Below are positions 2,924 to 64,000 of a DNA stretch of 64,000 nucleotides, in pieces. Both the position numbers and the translations under genes were made by a program. The notes under the pieces are model-generated. The model had not been told where the DNA came from, did no database searches, and saw nothing but the letters and a program-made list of their open reading frames with translations. Position 1 is the stretch's first letter. Every line of letters starts with the position of its first letter. Origin of the DNA: Nitrospirota bacterium (lineage in GTDB: Bacteria > Nitrospirota > UBA9217); the NCBI GenBank assembly GCA_963663225.1, contig OY760142.1, positions 352,001-416,000 of the forward strand, read 5' to 3'.

Positions 2924-3420
2924 TGCATTACAAACTCCGTAAAGTAGAGATTTTTAAAAATTTCTTTTCCGATGGCCAGGTTTGCTCTCAGAAGAAGTTC
3001 ATCCTTAAGCTGAAACTTTCCCTCCGGGCTGGACACGGCATCAACAGACTTGCTGCTCACCAGCGTAATAATGGCGTCCCGCAACTGGGGATTTTTTTCA
3101 GTGACCAGCGGCTGGTTTGCAGCGTCTCCCAATTCAAACTGCATGGAAACTTTCAAAAATCTGCCCTGCTCGGCAAGATTCACAACAAAGGGATCCAGCG
3201 CGATAAGCACTGTTTTTGCCGGCGCTTTTTTCTCTTCATTCTTTGCCTCGGCGGATTTTCCCTTACTTCCCGCAAAATGCATGTAGGCAAAAACACCGCC
3301 CGCGAGGGAAAGCACCAAAATACCGACAATAATCAACAGGCTTTTATTGCTTCCACGCGCCGGTTTCTGTTTCCCTTCTTCCTGCTCTTGCTCATTTTCT
3401 TCTTTTTTTGCCTCGGCCAT
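2920..3420 (-). CDS. fliL: Flagellar basal body protein FliL
   Basis: Single TM, LDPFVVNL, RDAII and YFTEFVMQ; AAGGAGGAG RBS before the ATG at 3420. Confidence 0.94.
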   Translation of the reverse strand: MAEAKKEENEQEQEEGKQKPARGSNKSLLIIVGILVLSLAGGVFAYMHFAGSKGKSAEAKNEEKKAPAKTVLIALDPFVVNLAEQGRFLKVSMQFELGDAANQPLVTEKNPQLRDAIITLVSSKSVDAVSSPEGKFQLKDELLLRANLAIGKEIFKNLYFTEFVMQ

Positions 3421-3667
3421 TTGCAACTCCTCCTTGCCATTCAAAGCTCGGCTAACGATCATAGATATTCAAATTGCATGCCCGACGCAACATACTGATA
3501 AAAAAGAACTTTACTATTTTCAAGTACGTCAAATTAATGACTCTGATAAATATTTGCCAAATAATGATGGACGATTTGACGGTATGTGCAAAATCCATCT
3601 TGCTTAAAATGCGTCACAACAGTACAATTCAACTAATCATCGCCTGAATGAAGGATCCGCAAATACT

Positions 3668-8074: not shown

Positions 8075-9664
8075 TCAAACTTTCTCTTTTGCTGCATTCA
8101 TGCCTGCTATGCGGCCGAACACCACTGCGTCGGGAGTGGCATTGGCCCCCAGCCGGTTATTGCCATGCACACCGCCGGTCACCTCGCCTGCAGCATACAG
8201 CCGCGGGATCGGGTCTCCCCATATGTCAATGACCTGGGCGGAAGGATTAATTCTGAGCCCGCCCATGCAGTGGTGGACCGAAGGCCACTGGGCAACGCTG
8301 TAATATGGCCCCTTTTCTATTGCCGTCATTACCGGAGTGTACGGTTTATTAAACTCAGGGTCTTTGCCTGCCTTCAGATACTGGTTATGCTTCCCAATTG
8401 TCTCTTCGAGAGCAACCGCCGGCACACCCATCTGCTTAGCAAGCTCGGCTAGAGAGGCCGCCTTCCAGACACGGCCCGCCGCAATCCCGCCATTAACCTC
8501 TTCCTGGGTGGTCACCTTCGGTATCATTTCTTCCGTGAACACACAGAAAGCGCGTTTCATGCCCGTATTGATTTCCGCCCGCGCAACAACATCTCGCCGC
8601 TCCAGTTCGCTCACAAACCGCTTCCCGAGCGGCGTAACAAAAACACCGCCGTAGCTCGGCATACGCGAAGGATACAGCGCATATTTATCGAGAGTGCCGC
8701 TGTCAGGGTCCGCCGTGGGATATAGCTGAATGAAACTGAGTTGAAGCGCGTCAGCGCCGATCGCCTGTGCGTACCGGATCACTTCTCCGGTCGCACCCGG
8801 CTGATTTGTACAGTTGTATGCGTCCGTGATATTGGGGTTGAACATCTGCCGCATCTTCACATCGCGCCCGAAACCTCCCGTGGTGAGCACCAGGGCTTTT
8901 TTTATTTTTATGTTCTTGGCGCCCCGGGGTGTTTCAACTTCAACGCCGAGCACCGGGCCTGCCGGGTCTTTGCGCCAGATCCAGCTTACTTTTGTGTTGA
9001 GACGGATCTTTTTGACACCGTTTCGGTCCGCGATCTTTTTGATCGCGTCAACGTAGCCTCGTCCCGTTCCGTCGATGCTGATATGGTCCCGGTATGCGGA
9101 ATGTCCGCCTATGCGGGCCAACACATTTTTCAGTTTGAGACCGCCTTCATCGACCATCCAGTCAAGCGCAGCCGGAGCGTTGTTTACCAGCACCCGCACT
9201 AATTCCGGAATATTGTAGTAATCGCCGCCTTTCAGCGTGTCCTGATAGTGAAGTTCAGCGCTGTCCTCGCCCAGTTTCAGTTTTTGGCGGAGTTGCTGAT
9301 TGTCAGTCCAGGCGTTGTACCCGCCGCCGTTAATCGTAGAGTTGCCGCCGGAAATAGGCATCTTCTCGAGAATGACGGTGTTGCTGCCCCGTGCCGCCGC
9401 TTCCGCAGCCGCGGCCAAACCGGCAAATCCTGAACCGACAATAACAACGTCTGTTTCCTCGTCCCATTTCTTGGGAAGCATGCGGACGGTCGCGGCTTCC
9501 GCATCTCCCCGAAAAACACCCAGCGACAAAGCCGGCACTGCTGCAAGCGCTCCGACTCCTCCCGCAGCCTTGAGAAAACTTCGACGGCTCAGAGAACCGT
9601 CCCCGGATTTTGCCTTTGCTGCAGATTTGTTTGCTGTGGTCTTGGATGAGTCGTCCTTTTGCAT
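8075..9664 (-). CDS. Tat-exported FAD-dependent reductase (flavocytochrome c flavin subunit; fumarate/urocanate/methacrylate reductase superfamily)
   Basis: SRRSFLK twin-Arg, VGSGFAG FAD site, ELERRD, HHCMGG and GGVHGNNRLGANA. Confidence 0.92.
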   Translation of the reverse strand: MQKDDSSKTTANKSAAKAKSGDGSLSRRSFLKAAGGVGALAAVPALSLGVFRGDAEAATVRMLPKKWDEETDVVIVGSGFAGLAAAAEAAARGSNTVILEKMPISGGNSTINGGGYNAWTDNQQLRQKLKLGEDSAELHYQDTLKGGDYYNIPELVRVLVNNAPAALDWMVDEGGLKLKNVLARIGGHSAYRDHISIDGTGRGYVDAIKKIADRNGVKKIRLNTKVSWIWRKDPAGPVLGVEVETPRGAKNIKIKKALVLTTGGFGRDVKMRQMFNPNITDAYNCTNQPGATGEVIRYAQAIGADALQLSFIQLYPTADPDSGTLDKYALYPSRMPSYGGVFVTPLGKRFVSELERRDVVARAEINTGMKRAFCVFTEEMIPKVTTQEEVNGGIAAGRVWKAASLAELAKQMGVPAVALEETIGKHNQYLKAGKDPEFNKPYTPVMTAIEKGPYYSVAQWPSVHHCMGGLRINPSAQVIDIWGDPIPRLYAAGEVTGGVHGNNRLGANATPDAVVFGRIAGMNAAKEKV

Positions 9665-9708
9665 AATAAGCTCCTATCGTTTTCTATTCATATGCAATCG
9701 CATGCCGT

Positions 9709-11226
9709 TTATGCCCAGGGCTTCTCAGCAGCGGCATTCTTGCCGCACGCCCTGCCGTTGACGATGCAGTCGGTCGTGGCGTTGCCGCCCAGCCTGTTGG
9801 CTCCATGCACGCCTCCTGTGACCTCACCAGCCGCATAAAACCGCGGAATAACATTGCCATGACGATCAATGACCTGCCCTGTTGTCCCTTTGGTTCTTAA
9901 ACCCCCCATGGTATGGTGCGCTCCCGCCTGGGTTGGGCTGGCATAAAACGGCCCTTTTGCGAGCGGTTTAAGATTCGTAACCTTCTTTCCGAACTCCTTG
10001 TCCTCTCCTTTTTTCGCAAACTCATTATAGTTCTTTACCGTGTTCAGGAATTTTTCCTCAGGCACATCAAATTTTTCTTTCAGGATTTTGGCCAGACCGT
10101 CCAGTGTGTCCGCTTTAAATATCAAACCGTCCTTGAGTGTTCGCTCGATTGTCGCGGCGTCAAATCTTTTTTTGCAAAGGTCGTCCGCCACCCACAGCAG
10201 CAGCTTTTTCGGCTGCTGCAAAACCGCATCAGACATGACATCGCGTCTGGCGTCTTCCGCGACAAACCGCTCACCTTTTGTGTTCACGAAGATGGCTGAG
10301 TCAATGCCGAGGTTCGCCAGCGAACCGTATTTCTTTGTATAATAGTTGCACGCGATGAGCAGTTGGATATAATCCATGCCGATTACATCCGCGCCTTCAT
10401 CCTCTGCGCTGATGATTGCCTCACCGGTTGCAGAAGCGACATTTGTCGTCGGCAACTCCACATCAAGAAGCGGCGCATACTTCGAACGCATTTTCACATC
10501 TGCGGCAAAACCGCCTGTCGCCAGCACCACTCCGCGTTTTGCTTTGAAATACAGCTTTTTCCCCTTGTTCTCGGCCTCAACGCCCTGTACCACGCCGGTT
10601 AAAAATCCTTCCCGAACGATTCCGCTCAGCTTGTACCCCATAAGAACCGGGATTTTCCTTTTATCAACTTCAGCTTTCAATGCCTTTACGATTGCGCCAC
10701 CCCGTCCTCCGTTGATAGGGTCATGGCTTCTCGGATAAAGAGAACCGACAATGGTATAGACAGTTGGTTCGAATTGTACGCCCATCTTTTCAAGCCACTT
10801 GACGCCGTCCAGGGCGTTCTCCACCAAAAATCTGACTTTTTCCGGGTCCCCCCGAAAATCACCGCCTGCCAGTGTGTGTTTGTAGTGCAGGTCAACAGAA
10901 TCTTCAATACCCTGTTTTTTCTGGCGTTCAGGGTCCACCGCGTTCATGCCTCCGCTGGCAATAATCGAGTTGCCGCCGATAAATAAATTCTTTTCAAGAA
11001 TGATAACATTGCTACCCGCATCAAATGCTTCAATCGCTGCGGCAAGACCGGCATATCCTGTGCCGATTACCACTACGTCAGCTTCTTTGTCCCATTTTTT
11101 TGGCTGACTTACTGCTTGCAATTCTTTCGGAAACAGCTGTCCGCCTACCACAGCACCAGCGGCAATTGCCGCCGTGGAACCCAGAAAACGCCTTCTTGTA
11201 ATGCCTGACTTTTTCTCACTGCTCAT
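9709..11226 (-). CDS. Second Tat-exported FAD-dependent reductase (flavocytochrome c flavin subunit)
   Basis: TRRRFLG twin-Arg, IGTGYAG, EDARRD, HHTMGG and GGVHGANRLGGNA. Confidence 0.92.
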   Translation of the reverse strand: MSSEKKSGITRRRFLGSTAAIAAGAVVGGQLFPKELQAVSQPKKWDKEADVVVIGTGYAGLAAAIEAFDAGSNVIILEKNLFIGGNSIIASGGMNAVDPERQKKQGIEDSVDLHYKHTLAGGDFRGDPEKVRFLVENALDGVKWLEKMGVQFEPTVYTIVGSLYPRSHDPINGGRGGAIVKALKAEVDKRKIPVLMGYKLSGIVREGFLTGVVQGVEAENKGKKLYFKAKRGVVLATGGFAADVKMRSKYAPLLDVELPTTNVASATGEAIISAEDEGADVIGMDYIQLLIACNYYTKKYGSLANLGIDSAIFVNTKGERFVAEDARRDVMSDAVLQQPKKLLLWVADDLCKKRFDAATIERTLKDGLIFKADTLDGLAKILKEKFDVPEEKFLNTVKNYNEFAKKGEDKEFGKKVTNLKPLAKGPFYASPTQAGAHHTMGGLRTKGTTGQVIDRHGNVIPRFYAAGEVTGGVHGANRLGGNATTDCIVNGRACGKNAAAEKPWA

Positions 11227-11362
11227 ACGCTCCTCCTATAAAGAAATAGTACTCTCGATGATTTCTTCTGAATAGAAAACATGCCACTTGTTTTACCTGC
11301 GACCTGGCTTTTTGTAACTGTACCACTATTTCCAGGACTATAGTAAAAAATAATCCCAAAGT

Positions 11363-52919: not shown

Positions 52920-54125
52920 CTATTTCAGTTCGGTTTTAAACATCTTTCTGGCCGCGGCCAGCCGATCATCGAGATCAGGCCCCTCCAGTTCAGCGGAAAC
53001 CTTCTGAAGGAAATCAGGAATGTTTACGTTCTGCGGGCACTTCTCCAGGCACGAACCGCACGCGCTGCACTCTGATGCGAATCCCGCCTCTCCGTTGCTC
53101 AACATGCCGCTCGCCGAAATAGTATAAAGAAATTTCGCTTCTTCCACGTTGCCGAACATATGCATTTTATTGTACAGGTCAAAGCACTTTGGAATCTGAA
53201 CGCCTGATGGACAGGGCATGCAATATCCGCAGCCTGTACATCCTATCGGCATCAACTCAAGATATCTTCGGCTTACGCGGTCTACCAGCGCCAACTCTTC
53301 TTTGGACAGGGAGTTTGGATGCGCCTCATCAGCGATGGCCAGATTTTGCTTGATATGAGCCTCCTCATTCATACCGGAGAGAACCACGGTCACCTCCGGA
53401 TGGTTCCACACCCAGCGAAGAGCCCACTCCACAGGGGAACGTCTGATCCTGGCCAAATTCCAGATGTCCGCGATGGCGGGAGGCGGCGTGGGGAGACTGA
53501 GATTTCCTCCCCGCAAAGGTTCCATGACTATCACGCCCAGATTCCTGGCAGCGGCATATTTCAGGCCTTCGATCCCAGCCTGAAATTTCTGGTCGAGATA
53601 ATTGTACTGTATCTGACAAAAAATCCAGGGATACTCATCAACAATGCGCTTGAAATCCACCAGTTCCCCGTGAAAGGAAAAACCAGCATTAACGATGCGG
53701 CCATCTTGCTGCGCTTTCTCTAGAAAATCAAAGATGCCGTGCGTCTTCACCGTATCCCATAAAGCGCCATCAAGCGCATGAACAAGATAATAATCGATTT
53801 GATCAATTCCCAGTTTTTCCATTTGCGTGGCCAGGTAGCGGTCCATGTCGCCGCGGCCGTTAATTATCCACGAAGGCAGCTTGGTTGCCACCTTGACCCT
53901 GTCACGGTACCTGTCTTTCAAGGCTTTTCCGAGCAACGGTTCGCTTTCGCCCCCATGGTACGGCCATGCGGTATCAACGTAGTTTACACCGTTATCGATT
54001 GCGTAGCGTATCTGGTTGATCGCTCTTTCTTCATCGATCTTTCCCGCTTTCATGGGAAGCCTCATACAGCCGAATCCAAGTATGGAAAGTGAATCTCCGT
54101 TTTTCGGTACTGTTCTGTATTGCAT
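52920..54125 (-). CDS. Aldo/keto reductase with C-terminal Fe-S domain
   Basis: LGFGCMRLP, DTAWPYH, MEPLRGG, CTGCGYCMPCP and CSACGSCLEKCP. Confidence 0.93.
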   Translation of the reverse strand: MQYRTVPKNGDSLSILGFGCMRLPMKAGKIDEERAINQIRYAIDNGVNYVDTAWPYHGGESEPLLGKALKDRYRDRVKVATKLPSWIINGRGDMDRYLATQMEKLGIDQIDYYLVHALDGALWDTVKTHGIFDFLEKAQQDGRIVNAGFSFHGELVDFKRIVDEYPWIFCQIQYNYLDQKFQAGIEGLKYAAARNLGVIVMEPLRGGNLSLPTPPPAIADIWNLARIRRSPVEWALRWVWNHPEVTVVLSGMNEEAHIKQNLAIADEAHPNSLSKEELALVDRVSRRYLELMPIGCTGCGYCMPCPSGVQIPKCFDLYNKMHMFGNVEEAKFLYTISASGMLSNGEAGFASECSACGSCLEKCPQNVNIPDFLQKVSAELEGPDLDDRLAAARKMFKTELK

Positions 54126-54202
54126 GTTTTTTCTCCTGTTTTTCATGTCCTTGAGTGAAGAACAAATACGACCACCGGCATACGTAAGCTTCCAGCAGCC
54201 CG

Positions 54203-54508
54203 CTATGCTTCCGTTAGCACCTTAAGGGTGCGTTCCTCGACCAGGTCTTTTACTTTGTCCCGGTACGTCAGCATATGAGGCGCTTTAAGATGCCGGTGGA
54301 GCGCTTCGAGGCTTTCCCATTTTTCGATAATCGTAATCAGTTGCGGGTCGAGTCCTTGCGTCGGCAGCTTCGAGTCGATATCGGCTGTCGGCATGTATTC
54401 CAGACATCCCTTCTCAGCCCTGACTGTAGGCACATTGGCCTTGCATATTTCCAGAAATTCCGGTATTTTTCCGGATTTAATGCGGATTGATGCAATAACA
54501 CTGATCAT
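54203..54508 (-). CDS. Putative quinol monooxygenase (ABM family)
   Basis: AEKGCLEY and IEKWESLEAL..HL.APHM. Confidence 0.9.
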   Translation of the reverse strand: MISVIASIRIKSGKIPEFLEICKANVPTVRAEKGCLEYMPTADIDSKLPTQGLDPQLITIIEKWESLEALHRHLKAPHMLTYRDKVKDLVEERTLKVLTEA

Positions 54509-55850: not shown

Positions 55851-56610
55851 CCTGCTTCTGTCCGCTTTCTTTCTTGTGTTTGCGACCGCCGCCCCTGCAT
55901 TCGCAAACAACGCTCCCGGGCCGCTCGCGATAGTGTCGCTCCTGTCACTGGTGATTCTGATTGTGGCGCTGACGTTTGCAGGCGGCGGCTACCGCGTATA
56001 TAAGCGGCTGCAGGAAACTAAATATACCTCGAAGCTGAGACGCACTATCATGAATGTCATGGAATTTATCGCCGGCGTTGCATTATTTTTTGTCGGCGCC
56101 TTCCTGTCCGTTTTCGGCATCCTGGGTTTTTCTCTATACGCAATCGCTCGGGGAATAAAAATGTTGAAGTGGGCACGGGAAGCCGGAAAAGACGGGGAAA
56201 CACCGGCCCATCTTGAAGGGGCAAATTCCAAAAGACTGAAGCAGGCCGGCATCATGCTGATTGTTTTTACTCTTCTTGTCCTCGGCTATTCGATGCTCCA
56301 CCTCGATGAAGTGACCGGAGTTGCCCCTTATAAAAAGAAAGGGCATGCTGCAGTTCTGAACGATGAGGTAAAGAAAGCGTACAGCGCCGCGCAAGTGCAT
56401 CTCAAGGAAAATCCAAAAGCAGAAATTGTTACCTGCGCCGATATGGAGAAAGCGGGCTACACACCTTCCTACAAAGGGACGGTCAATTGCTTTTCGGACA
56501 TGACCGTTTCCTCCGGGGAGATACGAATGACCGGGCCGCAATCGTGGGAGCTCAAGAAACCGGTTGCGAGCATGACTTTTTCCGGCGAGTTCTCTCCGGC
56601 GGAGCCTTGA
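55816..56610 (+). CDS. Multi-TM protein with a pilin-like C-terminal domain
   Basis: GGAGGAG RBS; signal peptide plus ~4 TMs; KKAYSAAQVHLKENP...GY..S segment. Confidence 0.7.
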   Translation: MTKSPAVMQFFNLLLSAFFLVFATAAPAFANNAPGPLAIVSLLSLVILIVALTFAGGGYRVYKRLQETKYTSKLRRTIMNVMEFIAGVALFFVGAFLSVFGILGFSLYAIARGIKMLKWAREAGKDGETPAHLEGANSKRLKQAGIMLIVFTLLVLGYSMLHLDEVTGVAPYKKKGHAAVLNDEVKKAYSAAQVHLKENPKAEIVTCADMEKAGYTPSYKGTVNCFSDMTVSSGEIRMTGPQSWELKKPVASMTFSGEFSPAEP

Positions 56611-56676
56611 GTGTTCTCCGCTTGGCGGAGCAGTTTTTTTATCGCAGTGGCTGAGGGTTACTGAATATTCAAATGA

Positions 56677-57750
56677 TTATTTTTCCTTCTTGAATTGCCT
56701 GCGGATGTCCTCATAATATTTTTTAGCGCAATCCGGACATAAGCCATGCGTAAATTCAGCTTCGGATTTATCGGAAATATAGGCTTCAATCTGGCTCCAA
56801 TAGCCCTTGTCATCCTTTATTTTTTTGCAGGATGCGCAGATAGGCAACAAGCCGCTTAATTGTTTCACCTTGGCAAGCGATTCCTGAAGTTCATGAACAA
56901 GCTTTTCGCGCTGTTCTTCCGCTTTTTTGCGTTCTGATATTTCTTCCAGCAACTTTGTATTTGAGTTCTCCAGTTCTGACGCGGCCAGCTGCAGGGCGGT
57001 TTCTCTTCGGTGCAGTTGTCGTCCCGCAAAAAATAAACCGGCAAGCCCTACACACCACAGCAAAAAATGGCCACTGGACAATCCGGTGATTCTGGATTGT
57101 TCAATGGCTCTCAGGGGCCCCATGGGGACGGAAGCGCTTATGCCTCCTCGAATATTTCCTTCTTGATACCCCTGGTGCGCATGACACGGAAGACATGATT
57201 TTTCGGTCACCAACGGGCGCATCAACCGCATGTATTCCCTGTTGTCGATCAAATCAAGGGAATATACTTCTTTCTTCCCCTGCGCAAATTCCACAAGAGC
57301 TTTTGTTTCCCAGCTGTCTGCCTTGTTTTCCGGACGGATAGGGTTCAAGCTCGTAATATGTCCGAGGATGCCCTGTTCCTGCTGCAGCAGTTCGTGGGAT
57401 TGGCGTGTCATGTACGCCGGATTTATCATGGTCAGCTTCCGGCCTGATTGTGTCGTAACGTCACGTTCAGGAATATCTGTTAGATAAGGATTACCCGGGG
57501 TATTCCTGGTCCGCGGTACGTATACCCCGCCATGCAGAGCGTTCCAGCGGCGGTAAATCACATCTTTCGTGAAAGCCACCCGCGCTTCGATAATCGCAAG
57601 CTCAAGAATCTGCCGCTTCAGATGGAGTATGTTCCATGCCGCAGAAAATACAATTATCACAGTCCATACCGCTGACAGTATCCAGAGATACCGTTTTATC
57701 TCAAATGAGTACTTGCTCTTCTTTTTATCAAGAAGCATCAGCCGCCTCAT
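56677..57750 (-). CDS. Heme-c sensor (DUF3365/Tll0287-like) with a Cys-rich C-terminal domain
   Basis: WNALHGGVYV, INPAYMTRQ and CLPCH; C-terminal LPICASCKKI.DDKGYW...FTHGLCPDC. Confidence 0.85.
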   Translation of the reverse strand: MRRLMLLDKKKSKYSFEIKRYLWILSAVWTVIIVFSAAWNILHLKRQILELAIIEARVAFTKDVIYRRWNALHGGVYVPRTRNTPGNPYLTDIPERDVTTQSGRKLTMINPAYMTRQSHELLQQEQGILGHITSLNPIRPENKADSWETKALVEFAQGKKEVYSLDLIDNREYMRLMRPLVTEKSCLPCHAHQGYQEGNIRGGISASVPMGPLRAIEQSRITGLSSGHFLLWCVGLAGLFFAGRQLHRRETALQLAASELENSNTKLLEEISERKKAEEQREKLVHELQESLAKVKQLSGLLPICASCKKIKDDKGYWSQIEAYISDKSEAEFTHGLCPDCAKKYYEDIRRQFKKEK

Positions 57751-58004
57751 ACTTATTGCCTATAGTTAGCATTGGGTGTTTTTTATATTGTATCATTGTG
57801 GATCAATTTTTTTTGGACTTTAATCACTGTGCAAGCTTAACATCGGCAATTCGGAATACTCAGGCAGCATACAATTCTTTCACTACCGGAGAAAAATTGG
57901 ACCGGGAATTTCACCATAGCATTCATCTCCTTTGATTGCCCTCTTTTTTTCTTTATGTTATGATGAACAAACATTGCCAGTAAGACATCGTTTGGGAGAA
58001 TTTT

Positions 58005-59837
58005 ATGATACGAGTGGTCCTCAATGTTTTGCCGCCCTCGAGAATCGACACCCCTTCTGCCGCGTTATCCACACTCAAGTCATTCCTGAAGCACCATGCG
58101 ATTGATGCAACGATTGTTTATTGGAACATTCTTCTTGACCGGCTCCTTCCCTCTTTTGAAAGAAATACCGACGAGACCCATTTCGAGTTGCTTCCATACC
58201 TCTACCTGATTTCTGATACGTATCAGGACGAAATCAAGAAGAGCAAAGCAAATGCCGTAATGAAAGCACAGCTGCCGTTCTCCGATATTCTAAACGACCG
58301 GAGCGATTTTTTTGCCCGGGCCAACGATATCCTGGAAGCTGCGTTTTCAACAGAATTTTCCCAGGAGATATATGCCGGTCAAATGCTTTTCGGAATATCC
58401 TGCAAATATGAGCAATGGATTCCCGGCATAATCCTCGCGAACCACCTAAAAAAACGTTTCCCTCATGCAAAAACCGTGATTGGAGGACTCAGAAACCGGG
58501 ACAAAGCAGAAGCTGTCATGAAAATATGCGGCGATTTCGATTTTGCCATATGGGGAGAGGGAGAATATCCGCTCTTGACGCTTTGCCGGGCTCTCGATAA
58601 AAAGACAGACGAATTTACGTCCGTCCCACGGTTGATCTTTCGCGAAAACGGTACCCTATTGTCTTCAGACACGGACGCAAGTGATTTCTCCGACATGAAC
58701 GACAGAATATTTCCTGACTATGATGATTACTTCCGCTGTCTCGAAACGTCGCGCAGAAAGAACTTTCCCGTTATCCTCCCTCTTGAATCCAGCCGGGGGT
58801 GCACCTGGAACGCGTGCAAATTCTGCGTTTACGCAGAAGGGTACAGGTGCAGAAAAAAGGATCCGGCAGTATTGGAAGAGGAAATTAGGCATCTGCTGGG
58901 CAAATACAAGACACCATATTTTGCCTTCATGGACAACGATATCGTGGCGAATGACCACGCAAGGCTCGACAAAATTCTTGACGCTCTCATTGCGATAAAA
59001 AAGGACTGCAATATTCACTTCATCGCCGAAGTGATACCTAAAAATTTTACCGCAGCAACCATGAAAAAACTTTCCCAGGCGGGACTGAACAGGATTCATT
59101 TCGGCTATGAGGCGCTTGCGAACTCGTTGCTGAAGAAGCTCGGGAAAAAGACCAACTTTTCGGACAATCTGCTTTTTGTCAAACTGGCGCTCAAATACCT
59201 AATCAAGCTTCCGTCGGCAAACATCATATGCGGCGCCGTGGGCGAGGAAGATCACGATATTCTTGAAAGCATCGACAATTTGCACTTTTTAAGGTTTTAC
59301 TTTGACAAAAACTTTTTCGTCCATAATATCATCCCCCTGCGTGTTGCCCAGCATTCCGATTTTTACAACCTGATCCCGAAGGAAACCCTCCTCAAATGGA
59401 ACGCGAATCCGATTTTCCACTTATTGCCGGATGACATGCTGGAGGGCATTGACCGTTTTTCGCTCTTCGATTTCAGCGCTGAACAGAATTTCATGTGGGA
59501 AATGTTTACAAAGATAAACACCTTTTACTATAATCACAACTATCGCTATAGCATTTCACGACAGGACGGTGCCATCATCTATAGCGAATACTTCGACGGT
59601 GATCTGGCCACACGGTTCGGGCTAAGCGACTTGGAATATCAGATCCTGCTGGAAACCAATTCAAACATACTGAATTGGAAGGAGCTAATCGGAGGTTTTC
59701 GGCTGAGGAACAATGTTCCGGTGGATGAATGTGCGGTGCGCATTGCTCTTGATCGTTTGAAAGAAAAACATTTAATCTATTTTGGCGACAACTATCATGC
59801 AATCATATCAGTCATTGACACCGATCAAACCTTTTGA
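58005..59837 (+). CDS. B12-binding radical SAM enzyme (class B), probable RiPP tailoring enzyme
   Basis: PSAALSTLKSFL...YWN, IGG...GEGE, ESSRGCTWNACKFC and FGYEAL; winged-helix-like C-terminus. Confidence 0.88.
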   Translation: MIRVVLNVLPPSRIDTPSAALSTLKSFLKHHAIDATIVYWNILLDRLLPSFERNTDETHFELLPYLYLISDTYQDEIKKSKANAVMKAQLPFSDILNDRSDFFARANDILEAAFSTEFSQEIYAGQMLFGISCKYEQWIPGIILANHLKKRFPHAKTVIGGLRNRDKAEAVMKICGDFDFAIWGEGEYPLLTLCRALDKKTDEFTSVPRLIFRENGTLLSSDTDASDFSDMNDRIFPDYDDYFRCLETSRRKNFPVILPLESSRGCTWNACKFCVYAEGYRCRKKDPAVLEEEIRHLLGKYKTPYFAFMDNDIVANDHARLDKILDALIAIKKDCNIHFIAEVIPKNFTAATMKKLSQAGLNRIHFGYEALANSLLKKLGKKTNFSDNLLFVKLALKYLIKLPSANIICGAVGEEDHDILESIDNLHFLRFYFDKNFFVHNIIPLRVAQHSDFYNLIPKETLLKWNANPIFHLLPDDMLEGIDRFSLFDFSAEQNFMWEMFTKINTFYYNHNYRYSISRQDGAIIYSEYFDGDLATRFGLSDLEYQILLETNSNILNWKELIGGFRLRNNVPVDECAVRIALDRLKEKHLIYFGDNYHAIISVIDTDQTF

Positions 59838-61180
59838 AGATAAAAATTCTTGATCGGCCTGCTAAGCACAAAGAACAGCGCCAGCACCGAATATATGATG
59901 AAAATGAAAAAAAAGATCAATAATATGTTTTTGTTCAATAGATCAATAACAATGCCGCTTCCTGCCAGAGAAAGAGGAACGAGGCCACCGTTGATTGAAT
60001 CCAGCGTTCCAAAAACCCTCCCCCGCAGCTCTTCGGGAATCACTTTTTGTTTGATCGACGTATTGATCAGACGCGAAACCGCCATGCATACGGAAATGAG
60101 TGAAAGCAGCCCGAACACAAGGTAGACATTCATGGAAAACGAAAGAAATAAAAATAATATCGCTTCAAGAATGAATACTCCGCATATCACTATATAATTT
60201 TGTTTTTCCGTTGTCTTCAGCATACCGTAGACAAAATACCCCGCGATGGAACTCATCGTCAGAATGCTTAGGAGATATCCGTAGTAGGCTTCCCCAAGCT
60301 TCATCACATCTTCAACAAGAAAAGGCAGCATTATCATCACGGCCGGAAAAAACAGATTGGACAGTGTGTAAACGATCGTCTGGTTCCTCAAGCCCTTGTT
60401 CGCCCAGATAAAAAGGAGTCCTTCTTTAACATCCTTGATAAAGCTTCGATACGAAGTTGAATATCTTTTCTCTGAGTCCTTCTGCTCCAGAGTGATGAAC
60501 AAACTCGAAAATGCCGCAGACAGATACGTTATGCCGTTCAGCAGGAACGCCAGGGTCCCTCCAAAAGCGCTGAAGAATACTCCACCCAGCGCGTTGCCGA
60601 TCATTGCCAGCAAACCGCTCGAACCCTGCAGCAAGGAATTGCCCTTCTGGATTTTGTCAATCTTGAGAATGAGCGGAATGATTGAGTAGAGGGCGGCGTT
60701 GAAAGCCGAGTCGATGATCCCCATGCACAGGGTCACGCAGAACACGATATAGAGCGTGAAGGGAAACGACGAGGAAAAATGAAATTGCGCCACTCCGATA
60801 TCGATCATCTTCAGGCCGAAAAAGTAATCCAGGCTGAATATGAACAGCAGAACCATAAGAATGCTTCGAAGAAAATAACTCCAGATGATCACTGTTTTTC
60901 TGGATGTTTTGTCGACCAGCGTCCCAGCAAATGGACCCAGCAGCACCCATGGAAGGAACGCCAGCAGTTCCACAACGCCGATGATGGTTGCCGACCCGGT
61001 TATTTTCTTCAGGTACAGGACAAGGACAACATAATAGAGCGTGCTGCCGAAAAACGCGGCGCTCTGGCCGGCGAAGAAGAGGGTGAAATTCCTGTTGAAC
61101 AATCTGTCGGAAGGCTTGGTCAAGGTATCTATACGCGTTTTTAAAGTCCGTTTCGTTATTTTTTGATGAATGTACCGCAC
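59825..61180 (-). CDS. MFS exporter (DHA3/macrolide-efflux-like)
   Basis: NRNFTLFFAGQ, GPFAGTLVDKTSRK, KEGL.FI and PEELRGRVF. Confidence 0.9.
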   Translation of the reverse strand: MRYIHQKITKRTLKTRIDTLTKPSDRLFNRNFTLFFAGQSAAFFGSTLYYVVLVLYLKKITGSATIIGVVELLAFLPWVLLGPFAGTLVDKTSRKTVIIWSYFLRSILMVLLFIFSLDYFFGLKMIDIGVAQFHFSSSFPFTLYIVFCVTLCMGIIDSAFNAALYSIIPLILKIDKIQKGNSLLQGSSGLLAMIGNALGGVFFSAFGGTLAFLLNGITYLSAAFSSLFITLEQKDSEKRYSTSYRSFIKDVKEGLLFIWANKGLRNQTIVYTLSNLFFPAVMIMLPFLVEDVMKLGEAYYGYLLSILTMSSIAGYFVYGMLKTTEKQNYIVICGVFILEAILFLFLSFSMNVYLVFGLLSLISVCMAVSRLINTSIKQKVIPEELRGRVFGTLDSINGGLVPLSLAGSGIVIDLLNKNILLIFFFIFIIYSVLALFFVLSRPIKNFYLQKV

Positions 61181-62340
61181 GTACGCGGAACATCAGCGGG
61201 ATGCGCCAGTTTGTGCTCGATGAATCGTTTCGCAATCAATTCGGTGATTTCGACGTTCTTGTCCATCAGCGCGCGCAGTGTCACCTGCGAAGTGCAGAAT
61301 GATCCCATGAAATTCGTGTCCGTCACCGGCGACAACGCGCAGTATTCTCCACAAATGGGCAGTGCGCTGCATTTTGTGCAGGTATCATTGTAGTATGAAT
61401 TCGGCGTCTCGCACAGTTCGATGGCTTTCGCCGCCCCGTCTAGGTAGGCAGGCAGGTCTTTTGCTTTCGCGATGGGGCCGGTTATACCGGCAAAAAAGCT
61501 GCATGGATAAATATATCCGTCCGCGGCTACATAGGCCGAAAAAAGACCTGCCCTGCACATCTGTGGCTTCGGCAAAGCGTGATAGTCAGAATTGCACAGA
61601 ACATTATTGTGATACAGGTGGAACTTGTTCAAAATAATGGTCTCTCGCGTGTTGAAATCAAACTGCGAAGCCAGAAATGCTGACTCGAACTCCGATTCAG
61701 CTCTGAGCATCGGCGGAATCTGCGAAGCCTGATGCCCCCTTCCCTCGCTCGAAACATAATTAACGCGGTAAAACCGAATCCCTTGTTTGTTGAAGAATTT
61801 GATGGTGGACGGCAGTATCCGCAGAGACTCCACGGTACCCACGACGAGCGCCGATATTTTAAATCCGTTTTCGGACAACGTAACGATATTGTCCCGTCTT
61901 TTTGCCGAAAGCAATCCCGGGTCAGGCAGTTCCCCGTCATAATGAATTGAAAAGTGCACGTTGTATTTTTTGAACAGATCTATGATCGCGGGTGGCAGGA
62001 TTGAGATGTTCGTCTGAACCGAGTACTCGAGTGCCTGGCCGGTTCTTTCCAGGTAGCGGTCCACCGCCTTAAAAAACGTTTCATACCATTTGACCGATAC
62101 CAGCAGGGGTTCTCCGCCGGAAAATACCACCACGCCCAGTTTTCCGTTGCTTAACTGCAGGAGCTTGATGACTGTTTCGGCTGTTTCCAGCGGATCTACT
62201 ATTTCTTCCTTTTCACCTTTCGGTGTTGCGGAAACGTTGCAGGCATCCTGGAAACAATATTCGCATGAAAGGTTACAGCCTGTAATAAGCTGGAACGTCA
62301 CACTGTTGAGATCTGCGAACGTGGGGGTAATCGTTGTCAT
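61156..62340 (-). CDS. Radical SAM/SPASM-domain peptide maturase
   Basis: CNLSCEYC, SGGEPLL and QTN; SPASM C-X12-G-X4-C...C-X2-C-X5-C-X3-C-X14-C. Confidence 0.9.
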   Translation of the reverse strand: MTTITPTFADLNSVTFQLITGCNLSCEYCFQDACNVSATPKGEKEEIVDPLETAETVIKLLQLSNGKLGVVVFSGGEPLLVSVKWYETFFKAVDRYLERTGQALEYSVQTNISILPPAIIDLFKKYNVHFSIHYDGELPDPGLLSAKRRDNIVTLSENGFKISALVVGTVESLRILPSTIKFFNKQGIRFYRVNYVSSEGRGHQASQIPPMLRAESEFESAFLASQFDFNTRETIILNKFHLYHNNVLCNSDYHALPKPQMCRAGLFSAYVAADGYIYPCSFFAGITGPIAKAKDLPAYLDGAAKAIELCETPNSYYNDTCTKCSALPICGEYCALSPVTDTNFMGSFCTSQVTLRALMDKNVEITELIAKRFIEHKLAHPADVPRTCGTFIKK

Positions 62341-62386
62341 TTGGTAATATCCTTACTTGTTTACGGAGTGGAAACGGCATGCAGAC

Positions 62387-62422
62387 CTGCTACGATATTA
62401 TCCTTTGATAACACCGCAGCAG
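62387..62422 (-). promoter_or_regulatory. Stem-loop between the precursor and maturase genes
   Basis: CTGCTGCGGTGTTATC-AAAG-GATAATATCGTAGCAG; 16-bp stem with 3 G-U pairs that form only on the minus strand. Confidence 0.65.
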
Positions 62423-62445
62423 GGGATTCTTTGAAAAACGTGGGT

Positions 62446-62643
62446 TTACTTGTTGGGGCAATAATTGGCGTAAGCACAGCAGCAGCCGCATTCCGACTCG
62501 ATTGATGCCGTCGCAGGCCTTCGCAGCGTGCTCAACATGTCGCCGAGTACTTCTTTCGATGCGTTCCACTCCGTTGCCACATACTGCTCTGCCAGATGTT
62601 CGGGTACATCATAAATGCGTCCAGACTTGTTCATCAATAACAT
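62446..62643 (-). CDS. Putative RiPP precursor peptide (65 aa, Cys-rich core)
   Basis: GAGGAGG RBS; all 5 Cys lie in the last 14 aa (CGCCCAYANYCPNK); directly upstream of the rSAM/SPASM gene. Confidence 0.82.
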   Translation of the reverse strand: MLLMNKSGRIYDVPEHLAEQYVATEWNASKEVLGDMLSTLRRPATASIESECGCCCAYANYCPNK

Positions 62644-62702
62644 ACTGTCCTCCTCATATAGTAGTCGTATGCTTGGGTTATTTTGCCGTTTTCTTCTTTT
62701 AC

Positions 62703-62731
62703 ACTCTAAAACTTTCCCGCCTTGTTGTCAA
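62703..62731 (-). promoter_or_regulatory. sigma70 promoter of the precursor operon
   Basis: TTGACA-N17-TAGAGT about 60 nt upstream of the precursor ATG. Confidence 0.7.
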
Positions 62732-62778
62732 GAAAAAATACTCCTGAACAAATAAAAAAGGTCATCATTGAACTCATT

Positions 62779-63174
62779 CTATTGCAATTCCGATATCTGA
62801 TCGACCGACAAATCGCACGTCGCAACCCATGGTGAAAAATGCATCGTACATTCCATCGATCCGGAGATTTCCACATGCCTGCCTTCCAGTTTCGATGCCT
62901 GATTCTTTGCCATGGCGGACAGGATAAGATTCAAAGCGGATACAGTCCGTTCAGATTTGGATCCTTTGGCAAACACAATCGGTTTGTCCAGTCTCAAACC
63001 ATATCCGCTTTTAGGGAGAGCCTGAGATGCGCTATTTTCATCCGTATGCACCGGTTGCATGCAATGGATGGTTCCGGTCACCCGAGTATCCTTGCGCACT
63101 TCCGAATCTGCGAATGATGGATAAGGAAAGCTCTGTATCACAACCGCAATTATTACTGCGAACAAAATGTTCAT
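62779..63174 (-). CDS. Hypothetical exported protein (possibly OB-fold/DUF4431-like)
   Basis: Signal peptide; L.LDKPI...EGRHVEISG pattern. Confidence 0.6.
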   Translation of the reverse strand: MNILFAVIIAVVIQSFPYPSFADSEVRKDTRVTGTIHCMQPVHTDENSASQALPKSGYGLRLDKPIVFAKGSKSERTVSALNLILSAMAKNQASKLEGRHVEISGSMECTMHFSPWVATCDLSVDQISELQ

Positions 63175-63261
63175 TCAGGAGTCATCCTTGCTTCCGCTTT
63201 GTTTGTACGGTCCATACTGCCGGCGCTTAAATTTTCCTTGTTCCGTGAGCATGTCGTGCAG

Positions 63262-64000
63262 CTATTTCATTTTCAACCCATCACGGTCAGGATCCGTCTT
63301 CACCGCGGACTTTGTTTTCACGTCAAGCAGTTCGGACATTTCAACAAGCCGGATGAATTCCGCCCGATAACCCTCGATGTCGGCGCCTTTGGCGGCCCGG
63401 GCCATTTTTTGTATGTCAGCATAATTCGCGTTTCCTTTATGCTCGGAGTCCCTCAACAGCATGCTCCATTCCGCCACGCTGGCCGCAAACCGAATATTTT
63501 CACTGGCATTGTCGAATGAAACTGAGACGCTTGGTATCTTGCTGACAAGCTCGGAGCTTACGTCGCTGTCCGGTTTCTTGTAGCGGAAACGGATTGTAGC
63601 AAGATCGGTGCTCGTGCGGGCGGCATCCTTGATCTGAACCGTCTGGTAAGTCAATTCCTGCTTCCCGGCCTCGTTCTCTGCCGGTACTATCTCATACAAT
63701 GCCGTAACCGAATGGCCTGATCCGAGTTCTCCGGCGTCTTTTTTGTCATCCGCGAATTCTTCAGCCCGCATCATCCGCTTCTCGTATCCGATCAACCGAT
63801 AGGACTTGACCCTGGCAGGGTTGAATTCCACCTGAAGTTTCACATCCTTTGCAATAGTCAGCAGTGTCCCGCCGAACTGTGATACCAGGACCTTTTTGGC
63901 TTCGAGCAGGTTGTCTATATACGCGTAATTACCGTTCCCTTTGTCGGCAAGTTTCTGCATTTTGGAATCCTTGTAGTTCCCCATGCCGTAGCCAAGCACG
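63262..64000 (-). CDS. YfbK-like vWA/DUF3520 protein (3' part)
   Basis: LADKGNGNYAYID, TIAKDVKLQVEFNP, DAGELGSGHSVTALYEI and YRAEFIRLV. Confidence 0.92.
   Translation of the reverse strand, partial: VLGYGMGNYKDSKMQKLADKGNGNYAYIDNLLEAKKVLVSQFGGTLLTIAKDVKLQVEFNPARVKSYRLIGYEKRMMRAEEFADDKKDAGELGSGHSVTALYEIVPAENEAGKQELTYQTVQIKDAARTSTDLATIRFRYKKPDSDVSSELVSKIPSVSVSFDNASENIRFAASVAEWSMLLRDSEHKGNANYADIQKMARAAKGADIEGYRAEFIRLVEMSELLDVKTKSAVKTDPDRDGLKMK

What the first reader, a model, noticed from the sequence alone, without database searches (positions are those of the whole stretch)
58005..62731. Candidate new RiPP gene cluster: Cys-rich precursor, rSAM/SPASM maturase, MFS exporter and B12 radical SAM
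Seen in sequence: a minus-strand operon with a near-consensus sigma70 promoter and a strong RBS. It encodes a 65-aa peptide, then a hairpin, a 394-aa radical SAM enzyme with a complete 7-Cys SPASM motif, and an MFS exporter overlapping the rSAM stop. A 610-aa B12-binding radical SAM gene converges on it and overlaps the MFS 3' end by 13 nt. Established: rSAM/SPASM enzymes install thioether (sacti/ranthipeptide) or aromatic cross-links in RiPPs, and class B rSAMs C-methylate RiPPs (e.g. polytheonamide, bottromycin). Inference: the cluster makes a cross-linked and methylated peptide. The precursor does not match SCIFF, subtilosin, mycofactocin, PQQ or streptide precursors as I know them, so the family may be undescribed.
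Basis: partly seen in the sequence, partly recalled or inferred. Interest (0 to 1): 0.92.

Follow-up and report, generated by a model that had tools for sequence, protein, structure and literature searches.

The report
New cysteine-rich radical-SAM peptide cluster
A four-gene set in an anaerobic bacterium encodes a small cysteine-rich peptide, two radical-SAM enzymes that probably cross-link and methylate it, and an exporter; the same set recurs in other anaerobes and matches no curated peptide family.

Summary

The 65-aa ORF is a real, strongly constrained gene:
- 37 other homologue clusters share 59-77% identity with it.
- A congener differs at 15 of 198 nt, and all 15 changes are synonymous.
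- A homologous peptide gene lies directly upstream of the SPASM gene in 19 of 19 loci examined.

The conserved parts are a leader (MLLMNKSGRIYDVPE...) and a core, GCC[C/N]x[Y/F]xN[Y/W]CP.

The B12-type radical SAM belongs to the system:
- It is adjacent and convergent in 11 of 14 assessable close loci, and encoded elsewhere in the genome in the other three.
- In one order, the same 10 of 96 genomes carry both enzymes.
- NC10 relatives carry a different B12/radical-SAM gene right after the SPASM gene in 3 of 3 loci.

Neither enzyme nor the peptide reaches any curated Pfam or NCBIfam family cut-off. The SPASM enzyme's nearest fold is anSME, at 16% identity.

Best reading: an uncurated radical-SAM RiPP family. 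The chemistry (Cys thioether, C-methylation) is inferred, not shown.

The parts
62703..62731 (-). Sigma-70-like promoter, TTGACA-17-TAGAGT
   Evidence: 10 of 12 matches. The -35 hexamer is kept in the congener locus L164. Not significant on its own: 14 sites found against 8.6 +/- 3.0 expected.
62649..62655 (-). Shine-Dalgarno GAGGAGG, 5 nt before the ATG
   Evidence: read from the sequence. The same GAGGAGG is present in L164.
62446..62643 (-). Precursor peptide, 65 aa: conserved leader (residues 1-46), variable linker, core G53-C54-C55-[C/N]56-x-Y58-x-N60-Y61-C62-P63-N64
   Evidence: 37 other homologue clusters. Invariant G8, D12, P14, C54 and C55 across 28 sequences that include distant ones. 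15 of 15 nt differences from the congener are synonymous. Single copy in its own genome.
62386..62423 (-). 17-bp stem-loop between the precursor and maturase genes, with no U-run; probably a transcript-stabilising or attenuating element
   Evidence: z = -3.3. Analogous stems in L002, L081 (followed by a U-run) and L003. The function is inferred.
61156..62340 (-). Radical SAM/SPASM maturase, 394 aa. CxxxCxxC at C22/C26/C29; seven SPASM Cys; no N-terminal RRE domain
   Evidence: AF2 model pLDDT 86.5. Best folds: anSME (TM 0.63-0.65, 16% id), CteB, TigE, ChlB, SkfB, SuiB.
59825..61180 (-). MFS exporter (DHA3 / MFS_3, EntS-like), 451 aa; start codon uncertain (GTG 61180 or TTG 61123)
   Evidence: MFS_1 2.4e-27, MFS_3 4.1e-19, TIGR00900 181 bits. 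Directly downstream of the maturase in 13 of 14 assessable close loci.
58005..59837 (+). B12-type (class-B-like) radical SAM, 610 aa: N-terminal Rossmann-like domain, cluster motif C266-x4-C271-x2-C274, C-terminal beta3-alpha3 domain (residues about 513-587) with RRE/PqqD-like topology
   Evidence: (TIGR03975 164 bits, below cut-off). Folds nearest TsrM, OxsB, MgmA, TokK and CysS. Convergent with the MFS gene, 13-nt overlap. Co-occurrence.
57936..57964 (+). Candidate promoter for the B12-type gene, TTGCCC-17-TATGAT with an extended TG
   Evidence: 9 of 12 matches only; a weak lead. Synteny with a congener that lacks the cluster breaks at about 57796, which places the left edge of the island here.

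Best explanation
This is a biosynthetic gene cluster for a ribosomally made, radical-SAM-modified peptide (RiPP) of a family that has no curated model.

**Proposed steps**
1. The 65-aa precursor is transcribed from its own promoter. A stem-loop after it probably keeps peptide mRNA in excess over enzyme mRNA (inferred).
2. The SPASM enzyme has no separate RRE domain, so it must recognise the highly conserved leader itself. It modifies the C-terminal core. The most likely reaction is one or more Cys-derived thioether cross-links. The conserved C54/C55 (and C62) thiols would be bound at an auxiliary Fe-S cluster and joined to a carbon of a conserved acceptor. N60 is the prime candidate, by analogy with the Cys-Asn beta-thioether made by NxxcB (inferred).
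3. The B12-type radical SAM binds the same peptide, probably through its C-terminal RRE-like domain, and adds one or more C-methyl groups (inferred from family and fold).
4. The MFS_3/DHA3 pump exports the product (inferred).
5. No leader peptidase is encoded in the cluster.

**Shown:** the genes, their conservation, their linkage and their co-occurrence.
**Inferred:** every chemical step.

**My odds**
- Real RiPP system: about 0.9.
- Both enzymes act on this peptide: about 0.8.
- The SPASM step is a thioether: about 0.5.
- The B12-type step is a methylation: about 0.6.
For: **The peptide is a real, constrained gene**
- 37 other homologue clusters share 59-77% identity.
- The congener's copy is 100% identical in protein. 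Its 15 differences in 198 nt are all synonymous. The SPASM, MFS and B12-type proteins are 90, 85 and 79% identical.
- A peptide gene lies immediately upstream of the SPASM gene in 19 of 19 loci.
- Distant members keep the leader and a CC...N-aromatic core: L003, L004, L082 and P0236-P0248.

**The SPASM enzyme**
- Full 7-Cys SPASM motif, invariant in 26 sequences.
- Its fold is nearest to peptide- and protein-modifying SPASM enzymes.
- It lacks the extra Cys of anSME. From recall, that leaves an open site on the first auxiliary cluster, as in thioether-forming CteB.
- Precedent: NxxcB makes a Cys-Asn beta-thioether with the thiol bound to an auxiliary cluster (PMC9389541, passages read). CrpC installs ranthionines on a Cys-rich neighbour (PMC13692751, abstract read).

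**The B12-type enzyme belongs to the system**
- The four-gene set is present in 11 of 14 assessable close loci.
- In the three others (G403, G829, G830) an orthologue of 55-60% identity lies elsewhere in the genome.
- In one order the same 10 of 96 genomes carry both enzymes.
- Three of three NC10 loci carry a different B12-binding/radical-SAM gene directly after the SPASM gene.
- Its fold matches cobalamin radical-SAM enzymes: TsrM, OxsB, MgmA, TokK, CysS.
- The best family hit is TIGR03975, 'RiPP maturation radical SAM C-methyltransferase'.
- The window's own genome has CobS.

**An accessory island**
- SPASM homologues were found in 2 of 401, 3 of 201, 1 of 201 and 10 of 96 sampled genomes.
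- The flanking genes are not conserved outside the genus.
Against: - No chemistry is shown.
- The SPASM enzyme scores about equally, and far below cut-off, against thioether, cyclophane, anSME, QhpD and other models. Sequence therefore does not pick the reaction.
- Its nearest fold is anSME, which is not a cross-linking enzyme.
- Some family members depart from the core. P0248 has a single Cys, P0242 lacks C62, and P0241 keeps the leader but has a Cys-free tail.
- The B12-type gene is unlinked in three genomes, and their peptide cores do not differ from those in linked loci.
- PF02310 is below threshold. TIGR03975 is below its cut-off, and the C-terminal 180 residues lie outside that profile.
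- The RRE-like label rests on secondary-structure topology alone.
- No protease is present.
- The genomes in the co-occurrence count are relatives, so they are not independent.
Confidence: 0.6

Rival explanations
1. The gene set is the same, but the SPASM enzyme makes a carbon-carbon, carbon-oxygen or carbon-nitrogen cross-link to an aromatic side chain (cyclophane, triceptide or daropeptide-like), not a thioether. Candidates are Y58-x-N60, or the aromatic residue at position 61. The cysteines would then serve as a disulfide or as metal ligands.
For: Several cyclophane-forming SPASM models are among the NCBIfam hits: YhhB 52.8, AmcB 51.6, DynA 49.9, GrrM 44.7, FxsB 34.4 and XyeB 29.1 bits. An aromatic-x-Asn triplet (Y/F/W/H-x-N) is common in the core, and the residue after N60 is Y or W in nearly all members.
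Against: All those hits are far below their cut-offs of 310-450 bits. Position 58 is L, V or A in several members (P0026, P0029, P0239, P0245, P0247), so the aromatic-x-N triplet is not universal. C54 and C55 are invariant across the 28-sequence alignment; beyond it C55 is kept in every intact member, and C54 is lost only in P0248.
Confidence: 0.2
2. The peptide is a sacrificial scaffold for a small exported molecule such as a cofactor, signal or metal chelator, in the manner of PQQ or mycofactocin. It is not a cross-linked peptide antibiotic. The near-invariant C-terminal core is processed and cut out, and the EntS-like MFS pump exports it.
For: The core is unusually constant across distant lineages, including Desulfobacterales, Syntrophorhabdus, Syntrophus, Syntrophobacteraceae and NC10. 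That fits a fixed function better than an arms race. The pump is of the MFS_3/EntS type, and NF007792 (enterobactin exporter) scores 58.7 bits. The conserved residues sit at the very C-terminus. There are three to five thiols within 11 residues.
Against: No peptidase, PqqD/MftB-type chaperone or further tailoring gene is conserved in the cluster. NC10 loci lack the MFS pump. The distribution is patchy and accessory, which does not suit a core cofactor. This reading does not exclude the best explanation for the enzyme steps.
Confidence: 0.12
3. The B12-type radical SAM acts on the peptide but is not a methyltransferase. It would catalyse another cobalamin-type or cobalamin-independent radical reaction, such as cyclisation, ring contraction or dehydration, as OxsB, BchE or AprD4 do.
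For: OxsB and AprD4 are among the best fold matches. BchE (59.1 bits) and other non-methylating class-B members are among the family hits. The B12-binding Pfam score is sub-threshold. The cluster motif has the spacing Cx4Cx2C (and the sequence). The protein falls below the TIGR03975 cut-off.
Against: TIGR03975 is by far the best hit: 164 bits against 71 for the next. Most of the top fold matches are methyltransferases: TsrM, MgmA, TokK and CysS.
Confidence: 0.2
4. The SPASM enzyme is an anaerobic sulfatase-maturating enzyme or another protein maturase, and the small ORF is incidental.
For: anSME is the best fold match (TM 0.63-0.65) and the best profile match in the PDB (E 2e-16). The core ends in C-P-N-[K/R], which faintly resembles the sulfatase C-x-P-x-R motif. 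That motif is recalled, not tested.
Against: TIGR03942 scores 60.5 bits against a cut-off of 349, at 16% identity. No sulfatase gene lies in any of the loci examined. The peptide gene is adjacent in 19 of 19 loci and is under strong purifying selection. The position of anSME's extra cluster Cys is not a Cys here.
Confidence: 0.03

Closest known systems
Ranthipeptides and sactipeptides (radical-SAM thioether RiPPs: PapB, NxxcB, CteB/SCIFF, AlbA; also CrpC)
   Same: A Cys-rich precursor is encoded directly upstream of a three-cluster radical SAM/SPASM enzyme. Conserved Cys and Asn in the core offer a donor and an acceptor like the Cys-Asn beta-thioether of NxxcB. PapB is the top NCBIfam hit by score (66 bits), and CteB is among the top folds.
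   Different: All family models are far below cut-off (PapB 66 against 340). There is no N-terminal RRE domain: CxxxCxxC starts at residue 22. The precursor matches no SCIFF or other model. A B12-type radical SAM is an obligatory partner at genome level. No thioether has been shown.
Proteusin-type cobalamin radical-SAM C-methyltransferases (PoyB/PoyC group, NCBIfam TIGR03975)
   Same: This is the best family hit for the 610-aa enzyme: 164 bits over profile positions 1-428. The enzyme has the class-B fold with an N-terminal Rossmann-like domain. It sits in a RiPP context.
   Different: The score is below the curated cut-off of 281.85. The C-terminal 180 residues do not match the profile and instead form a beta3-alpha3 domain. 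The precursor is not of the NHLP or Nif11 type (no hit). The enzyme is paired with a SPASM enzyme rather than an epimerase (the epimerase pairing in proteusins is recalled).
Anaerobic sulfatase-maturating enzyme (anSME, PDB 4K36-4K39)
   Same: It is the nearest solved fold and is similar in length, with no RRE and two auxiliary clusters in a SPASM domain.
   Different: 16% identity, and far below the family cut-off. It has a dedicated small peptide substrate instead of a sulfatase. It lacks the extra Cys of anSME.
Mycofactocin and PQQ systems (MftC, PqqE)
   Same: A small, highly conserved precursor whose conserved residues lie at the C-terminus, paired with a SPASM radical SAM.
   Different: No MftC family is among the 25 NCBIfam hits shown, and PqqE is only a low fold match (rank 25). 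There is no PqqD/MftB partner gene. The distribution is accessory and patchy.

Membership tests
Radical-SAM-modified RiPP cluster (generic kind) | A small precursor gene is adjacent to the radical SAM maturase and conserved with it | tested here: met
   19 of 19 loci. 37 other homologue clusters.
Radical-SAM-modified RiPP cluster (generic kind) | The precursor has a conserved leader and a distinct modified core | tested here: met
   Leader residues 1-46 and the core GCC..N[YW]CP are conserved, with a variable linker between them. That the core is modified is inferred.
SPASM radical SAM enzymes | CxxxCxxC plus the seven-Cys SPASM motif | tested here: met
   C22/C26/C29 and C262, C280, C321, C324, C330, C334, C349 are invariant. 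TIGR04085 scores 33.7, above its cut-off of 27.
Ranthipeptide maturase PapB family (NF047865) | Score at or above the curated cut-off | tested here: not met
   66 bits against 340, and only the N-terminal part matches.
Sactipeptide/ranthipeptide maturases | N-terminal RRE (PqqD-like) leader-binding domain | tested here: not met
   The radical SAM motif starts at residue 22. The AF2 model shows no extra N-terminal domain. That this domain is typical of these maturases is recalled.
Sactipeptide/ranthipeptide | Cys sulfur to carbon thioether in the product | not testable with these tools
   Needs mass spectrometry or NMR of the modified peptide.
SCIFF and other curated precursor families | The precursor matches the family HMM | tested here: not met
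   0 Pfam and 0 NCBIfam families at E <= 0.01.
Anaerobic sulfatase maturase (TIGR03942 / NF010321) | Score at or above the cut-off, and a sulfatase partner | tested here: not met
   60.5 against 349.45 and 41.4 against 441. No sulfatase gene in any locus examined.
Three-residue cyclophane (triceptide) maturases (XyeB, GrrM, FxsB, YhhB) | Family HMM cut-off, and a conserved aromatic-x-x motif in the precursor | tested here: not met
   29-53 bits against cut-offs of 310-450. Position 58 is not always aromatic.
RiPP radical SAM C-methyltransferase (TIGR03975) | Score at or above the curated cut-off | tested here: not met
   164.1 against 281.85. Only profile positions 1-428 of 606 match.
Cobalamin-dependent (class B) radical SAM enzymes | N-terminal cobalamin-binding Rossmann domain followed by a radical SAM barrel | tested here: inconclusive
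   The top folds are TsrM, OxsB, MgmA, TokK and CysS, at TM 0.45-0.53. PF02310 scores only 15.3 bits against 32.1, though it is precomputed on some homologues. Cobalamin binding itself was not tested.
RRE (PqqD-like) domain in the B12-type enzyme | Three-stranded sheet followed by three helices that binds a leader peptide | tested here: inconclusive
   The beta3-alpha3 order at residues 513-587 has pLDDT above 85. No Pfam hit at E <= 10. No domain-level fold search was possible.

The most novel reading that the evidence does not exclude
This is a previously undescribed RiPP class of strictly anaerobic, often syntrophic bacteria (Desulfobacterota-type lineages, Syntrophorhabdus, NC10).

- Its almost invariant core, CC-x2-aromatic-x-N-aromatic-C-P, is built by an RRE-less SPASM enzyme that installs a new type of Cys/Asn/aromatic cross-link.
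- A cobalamin radical SAM carries its own C-terminal leader-binding domain.
- The constancy of the core across phyla would mean a conserved physiological role, such as an interspecies signal or a metal- or redox-active molecule, rather than an antibiotic.
Probability: 0.3. Interest if true: 0.75.

Novelty: new variant of a known kind. Interest (0 to 1): 0.55.

Why it matters
Radical-SAM RiPPs are a main source of new enzyme chemistry. Most characterised ones come from Firmicutes, Actinobacteria and host-associated bacteria.

This family is well delimited and small: a profile search of 1.84 billion representative proteins gave 16 hits, 13 of them small peptides. It lives in syntrophs, sulfate reducers and NC10 bacteria. 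Two features stand out:
- Genome-level co-occurrence pairs a SPASM enzyme with a B12-type radical SAM, and two distant clades use different B12-type genes for the same place in the cluster.
- The core peptide is far more constant than is usual for bacteriocins.

It gives a concrete, testable pair of enzymes and a 65-aa substrate for finding a possibly new cross-link. It also opens the question of what a conserved exported peptide does in anaerobic consortia.

It is not surprising in kind. Specialists expect many such uncharacterised families.

Tried and rejected
- **Complex prediction.** Complex prediction of the SPASM enzyme (A2) with the precursor (A3) returned 'no answer' (ipSAE 0.02). It is not evidence either way.
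- **Expression.** The look-up of sequencing runs listed no RNA holder; the 4 rows of one study are of unstated kind.
- **Protein atlas.** The precursor search gave best scores of 0.77, which is not informative. The SPASM search gave only generic radical-SAM clusters.
- **Rfam.** A scan of 56000-64000 gave no match at E <= 0.1, so no riboswitch was found.
- **Pfam on the C-terminal domain.** The C-terminal 117 aa of the B12-type enzyme gave nothing at E <= 10.
- **Collection scans.** They gave only 4 and 2 close loci and are not exhaustive. More loci came from the genome search.
- **Neighbouring genes as cluster members: rejected.** The 131-aa secreted protein, the YfbK_C/vWA-type protein and the Tll0287-like protein have no homologue in the six loci (L001-L004, L081, L082); later loci had too little flank on that side to judge. 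They are syntenic only within the genus.
- **Clean insertion site: not found.** In congener G050, synteny with the window ends at about 57796. It does not resume within 10 kb.
- **Literature searches.**
  - 'NYCPN' anywhere: 1 irrelevant paper.
  - Six-term RiPP/SPASM/cobalamin search: 5 papers, listing only seen.
  - Ranthipeptide + B12 search: 10 papers hold the terms, 8 listed.
  - RiPP + SPASM + Desulfobacterota: 0 papers.
  - Radical SAM + RiPP + Syntrophorhabdus: 1 irrelevant paper, passages read.
  - PMC10288494: passages read, nothing on this family in the main text. Its supplements could list it, but they are closed.
  - None of these searches found this family.

Full report
**1. The observation**

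- a 65-aa ORF at 62446-62643(-);
- a 394-aa radical SAM at 61156-62340(-);
- a 451-aa MFS protein at 59825-61180(-);
- a convergent 610-aa radical SAM at 58005-59837(+).

The stop of the 610-aa gene (TGA 59835-59837) overlaps the MFS 3' end by 13 nt.

Upstream of the small ORF there is TTGACA-17-TAGAGT at 62731-62703, matching 10 of 12. GAGGAGG lies 5 nt before the ATG. The promoter match alone is weak evidence: the scan found 14 sites in the region against 8.6 +/- 3.0 in shuffles. In a congener the TTGACA hexamer is kept at the same place, with a poorer -10.

Between the small ORF and the SPASM gene a 17-bp stem with a 4-nt loop (62386-62423) folds well. The 116-nt stretch has an MFE of -28.6 kcal/mol, z = -3.3, and 0 of 200 shuffles fold as well. 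Stable stems occupy the same spacer in L002, L081 (followed by a U-run) and L003, although their sequences differ.

The MFS start is uncertain. GTG 61180 overlaps the SPASM stop by 25 nt. An in-frame TTG at 61123 would leave a 32-nt gap. Alignments to homologues begin at residue 6-24.

**2. The proteins**

*The peptide.* It matches no Pfam or NCBIfam model.

*The 394-aa enzyme.*
- It has PF04055, PF13353 and the SPASM domain model TIGR04085 (33.7 bits, cut-off 27).
- It hits 61 NCBIfam families, and no family-specific model is near its cut-off. The best are PapB (66 against 340), anSME (60.5 against 349), TIGR04083 (59.1 against 300), CbpB (56.1 against 375) and QhpD-type (55.3 against 453).
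- In an alignment of 26 homologues, C22/C26/C29 and the seven SPASM cysteines (C262, C280, C321, C324, C330, C334, C349) are invariant.
- Its AF2 model (pLDDT 86.5) is closest to anSME (TM 0.63-0.65, 16% identity). Next come CteB, TigE, ChlB, SkfB and SuiB.
- The radical SAM motif begins at residue 22, so there is no N-terminal RRE domain.
- In the profile alignment to anSME, the position of anSME's additional cluster cysteine is not a cysteine in this family.

*The MFS protein.* It is of the MFS_1/MFS_3 and TIGR00900 type, with EntS and Mef as distant relatives.

*The 610-aa enzyme.*
- Its best family hit is TIGR03975, 'RiPP maturation radical SAM C-methyltransferase'. It scores 164 bits against a cut-off of 281.85, and only over profile positions 1-428.
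- PF02310 is sub-threshold.
- Its AF2 model (pLDDT 89.3) matches cobalamin radical SAM enzymes best: TsrM, OxsB, MgmA, TokK and CysS, at TM 0.45-0.53.
- Its cluster motif is C266-x4-C271-x2-C274, invariant in 37 sequences.
- Its C-terminal part has three strands (513-540) followed by three helices (542-587). That order is the one recalled for PqqD-like RRE domains. I could not test it by a domain-level fold search.

**3. Is the small ORF a gene?**

Yes.
- A search of 5.8 billion protein clusters gave 37 other clusters of 50-106 aa at 59-77% identity.
- Sources name Desulfobacterales, Syntrophorhabdus and Syntrophobacteraceae for peptide homologues, and also Syntrophus for SPASM homologues.
- The alignment shows a near-invariant leader: MLLMNKSGRIYDVPE...GDMLSTLR.PASA. 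A variable linker follows, and then the core. The core comes in two flavours, [E]CGCCCxYxNYCPN[K/R] and xxGCCNxYxNYCPNx.
- In a congener (G221) the peptide is 100% identical, while the SPASM, MFS and B12-type proteins are 90, 85 and 79% identical.
- The two peptide genes differ at 15 of 198 nt, and all 15 changes are synonymous.
- The window's own genome has a single copy.

**4. How far the family reaches**

A profile of 28 precursors was searched against 1.84 billion representative proteins. It found 16 hits at E <= 0.001. Thirteen are small proteins. Three are partial matches in long proteins, which I take as spurious.

I read 12 of the 13; the thirteenth, P0033, appears. They keep the leader start (ML[LV][MIV]N..G..YDVP) but vary in the core:
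- GQGCCNIYSNYCPNN
- GCCNAFPNWCPP...
- GCCGGHPNWCPPGGG..
- KSCCNAWPNYCPNS
- WKCCNLYANYTPSD
- GPCCACAGGGQAINYAKYDR, and two similar cores
- KWCILYPNWKDID, with a single Cys
- P0241, which has the leader and a Cys-free tail; it is possibly a frameshifted ORF

Across the 28-sequence alignment the invariant residues are G8, D12, P14, C54 and C55. N60, Y61, C62 and P63 are at least 90% conserved. The common denominator of the core is therefore Cys(-Cys), then an Asn followed by an aromatic residue.

**5. Gene neighbourhoods**

I examined 19 loci:
- the window;
- L164, from the same genus;
- L175 and L176;
- L186 to L194.

A homologous peptide gene lies directly upstream of the SPASM gene in 19 of 19. 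In L176 it is cut by the contig end.

In the close clade (SPASM at least 60% identical; 15 loci, 14 assessable because L191 ends 151 nt after the SPASM gene):
- The MFS gene follows in 13 of 14.
- The convergent B12-type gene follows that in 11 of 14.
- The three exceptions are L003 (peptide and SPASM only), L188 and L189 (peptide, SPASM and MFS).
- Their genomes (G403, G830, G829) each encode an orthologue of the B12-type enzyme (55-60% identity) elsewhere.
- G835, the genome of L191, has the B12-type gene plus the MFS gene on another contig.
- The peptide cores of the unlinked cases do not differ from those of linked ones.

In the order that contains G401, 10 of 96 genomes have the SPASM homologue. 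Exactly the same 10 of 96 have the B12-type orthologue at E <= 1e-100. These genomes are relatives, so this is not a statistical test, but the profile is perfect.

In NC10 bacteria the SPASM enzyme is 41% identical and the peptide 32-34%. There, 3 of 3 loci carry a different B12-binding/radical-SAM gene on the same strand, right after the SPASM gene:
- PF02310 E 1.6e-6;
- TIGR04190 52 bits;
- hhalign probability 85% to the window's family across the B12 domain and the cluster motif.

These NC10 loci have no MFS gene. L082 has a convergent ABC exporter instead.

The genes flanking the window's cluster are not conserved outside the genus. In congener G050, which lacks the SPASM gene, synteny ends at about 57796.

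The system is rare and patchy. SPASM homologues at E <= 1e-40 occur in 2 of 401 genomes of the window's phylum sample (itself and G221), 3 of 201 in the phylum of G404, 1 of 201 in the order of G402 and 10 of 96 in the order of G401.

**6. Reading**

The data show a self-contained accessory gene set. Its constant pair is a leader-plus-core peptide and a SPASM radical SAM. Its near-constant third member is a B12-type radical SAM. An exporter is usually present. This is the signature of a radical-SAM RiPP pathway.

Because the leader stays conserved where the B12-type gene is unlinked or replaced, the RRE-less SPASM enzyme must recognise the leader itself (inference). The B12-type enzyme may use its own C-terminal domain for this (inference).

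For the SPASM reaction I favour thioether formation, for three reasons:
- Cys54/55 and Asn60 are the most conserved core positions.
- NxxcB gives a precedent for a radical Cys-Asn beta-thioether, with the thiol bound to an auxiliary cluster (PMC9389541, passages).
- Cys-rich substrates encoded next to SPASM enzymes have again proved to carry ranthionines (PMC13692751, abstract).

The sequence scores do not discriminate between thioether, cyclophane and other chemistries, so I put this at about 0.5.

For the B12-type enzyme, C-methylation is the default of its nearest family and of most of its fold neighbours. I put it at about 0.6. The window's own genome encodes CobS, so cobalamin is plausibly available.

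No peptidase is in the cluster. Leader removal is unexplained.

**7. Comparison with known families, and novelty**

The system works like a ranthipeptide or sactipeptide pathway combined with a proteusin-type C-methyltransferase. It fails every curated membership test tried (PapB, anSME, cyclophane families, TIGR03975, precursor models). It also differs in architecture: there is no RRE on the SPASM enzyme, and there is an extra C-terminal domain on the B12-type enzyme.

Five literature searches found nothing on this motif or family. The supplements of the radical-SAM RiPP compendium (PMC10288494) could not be seen and might list it.

I rate it a new variant of a known kind. It is a good, well-delimited target for enzymology, and notable for the constancy of its core across phyla. 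It is not surprising in kind.

The complex-prediction job gave no verdict and is not used as evidence.

Noticed in passing
L196 (G829:C73) 3345-3460, minus strand: Directly after, and convergent with, the unlinked B12-type gene lies a relic of a precursor gene. Its C-terminal half reads ...AVDGC*NAFANYCPNR, with an in-frame TGA where the second Cys should be, and no recognisable leader upstream. It looks like the remains of a second cluster of the GCCN type that lost its SPASM and MFS genes. A selenocysteine reading of the TGA was not tested.
   Followed up: partly
L175 (G587:C1) 8150-10624: The NC10-type B12/radical-SAM gene after the SPASM gene is split into two pieces (8150-8851 and 10016-10624). 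The insert is about 1.16 kb and carries a 378-aa ORF (8871-10007), possibly an insertion element. The ORF was not scanned.
   Followed up: no
L001 (G401) 9514-11330: The B12-type gene aligns in three different frames (query residues 1-51, 46-520 and 524-606). This means two frameshifts, in a MAG whose name suggests long-read assembly. They may be assembly errors rather than a pseudogene.
   Followed up: no
window 56677-57750 (-): A Tll0287-like (PF11845) protein of 357 aa has a coiled-coil and a C-terminal Cys-rich tail (CASC...CPDC). It is syntenic within the genus (87-91% identity). The G050 copy shows one in-frame TAA.
   Followed up: no
window 52920-54146 (-): An aldo/keto reductase fused to a C-terminal 4Fe-4S dicluster domain (408 aa). 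It is followed by a 101-aa ABM-family monooxygenase-like protein at 54203-54508.
   Followed up: no
L003 3183-3578 (-): A 131-aa radical-SAM N-terminal fragment lies about 400 nt upstream of, and divergent from, the precursor in the one close locus that has no MFS or B12-type neighbour. Its best hit is viperin-like at 35 bits, below cut-off. It may be truncated or frameshifted, and its relevance is unknown.
   Followed up: no
window 62779-63174 (-) and 63262-63999 (-): A 131-aa protein with an N-terminal signal-like segment and no family hit, and a YfbK_C-domain protein that runs off the window. Both lie upstream of the cluster and are syntenic only within the genus (59% and 85% identity in G221).
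   Followed up: partly
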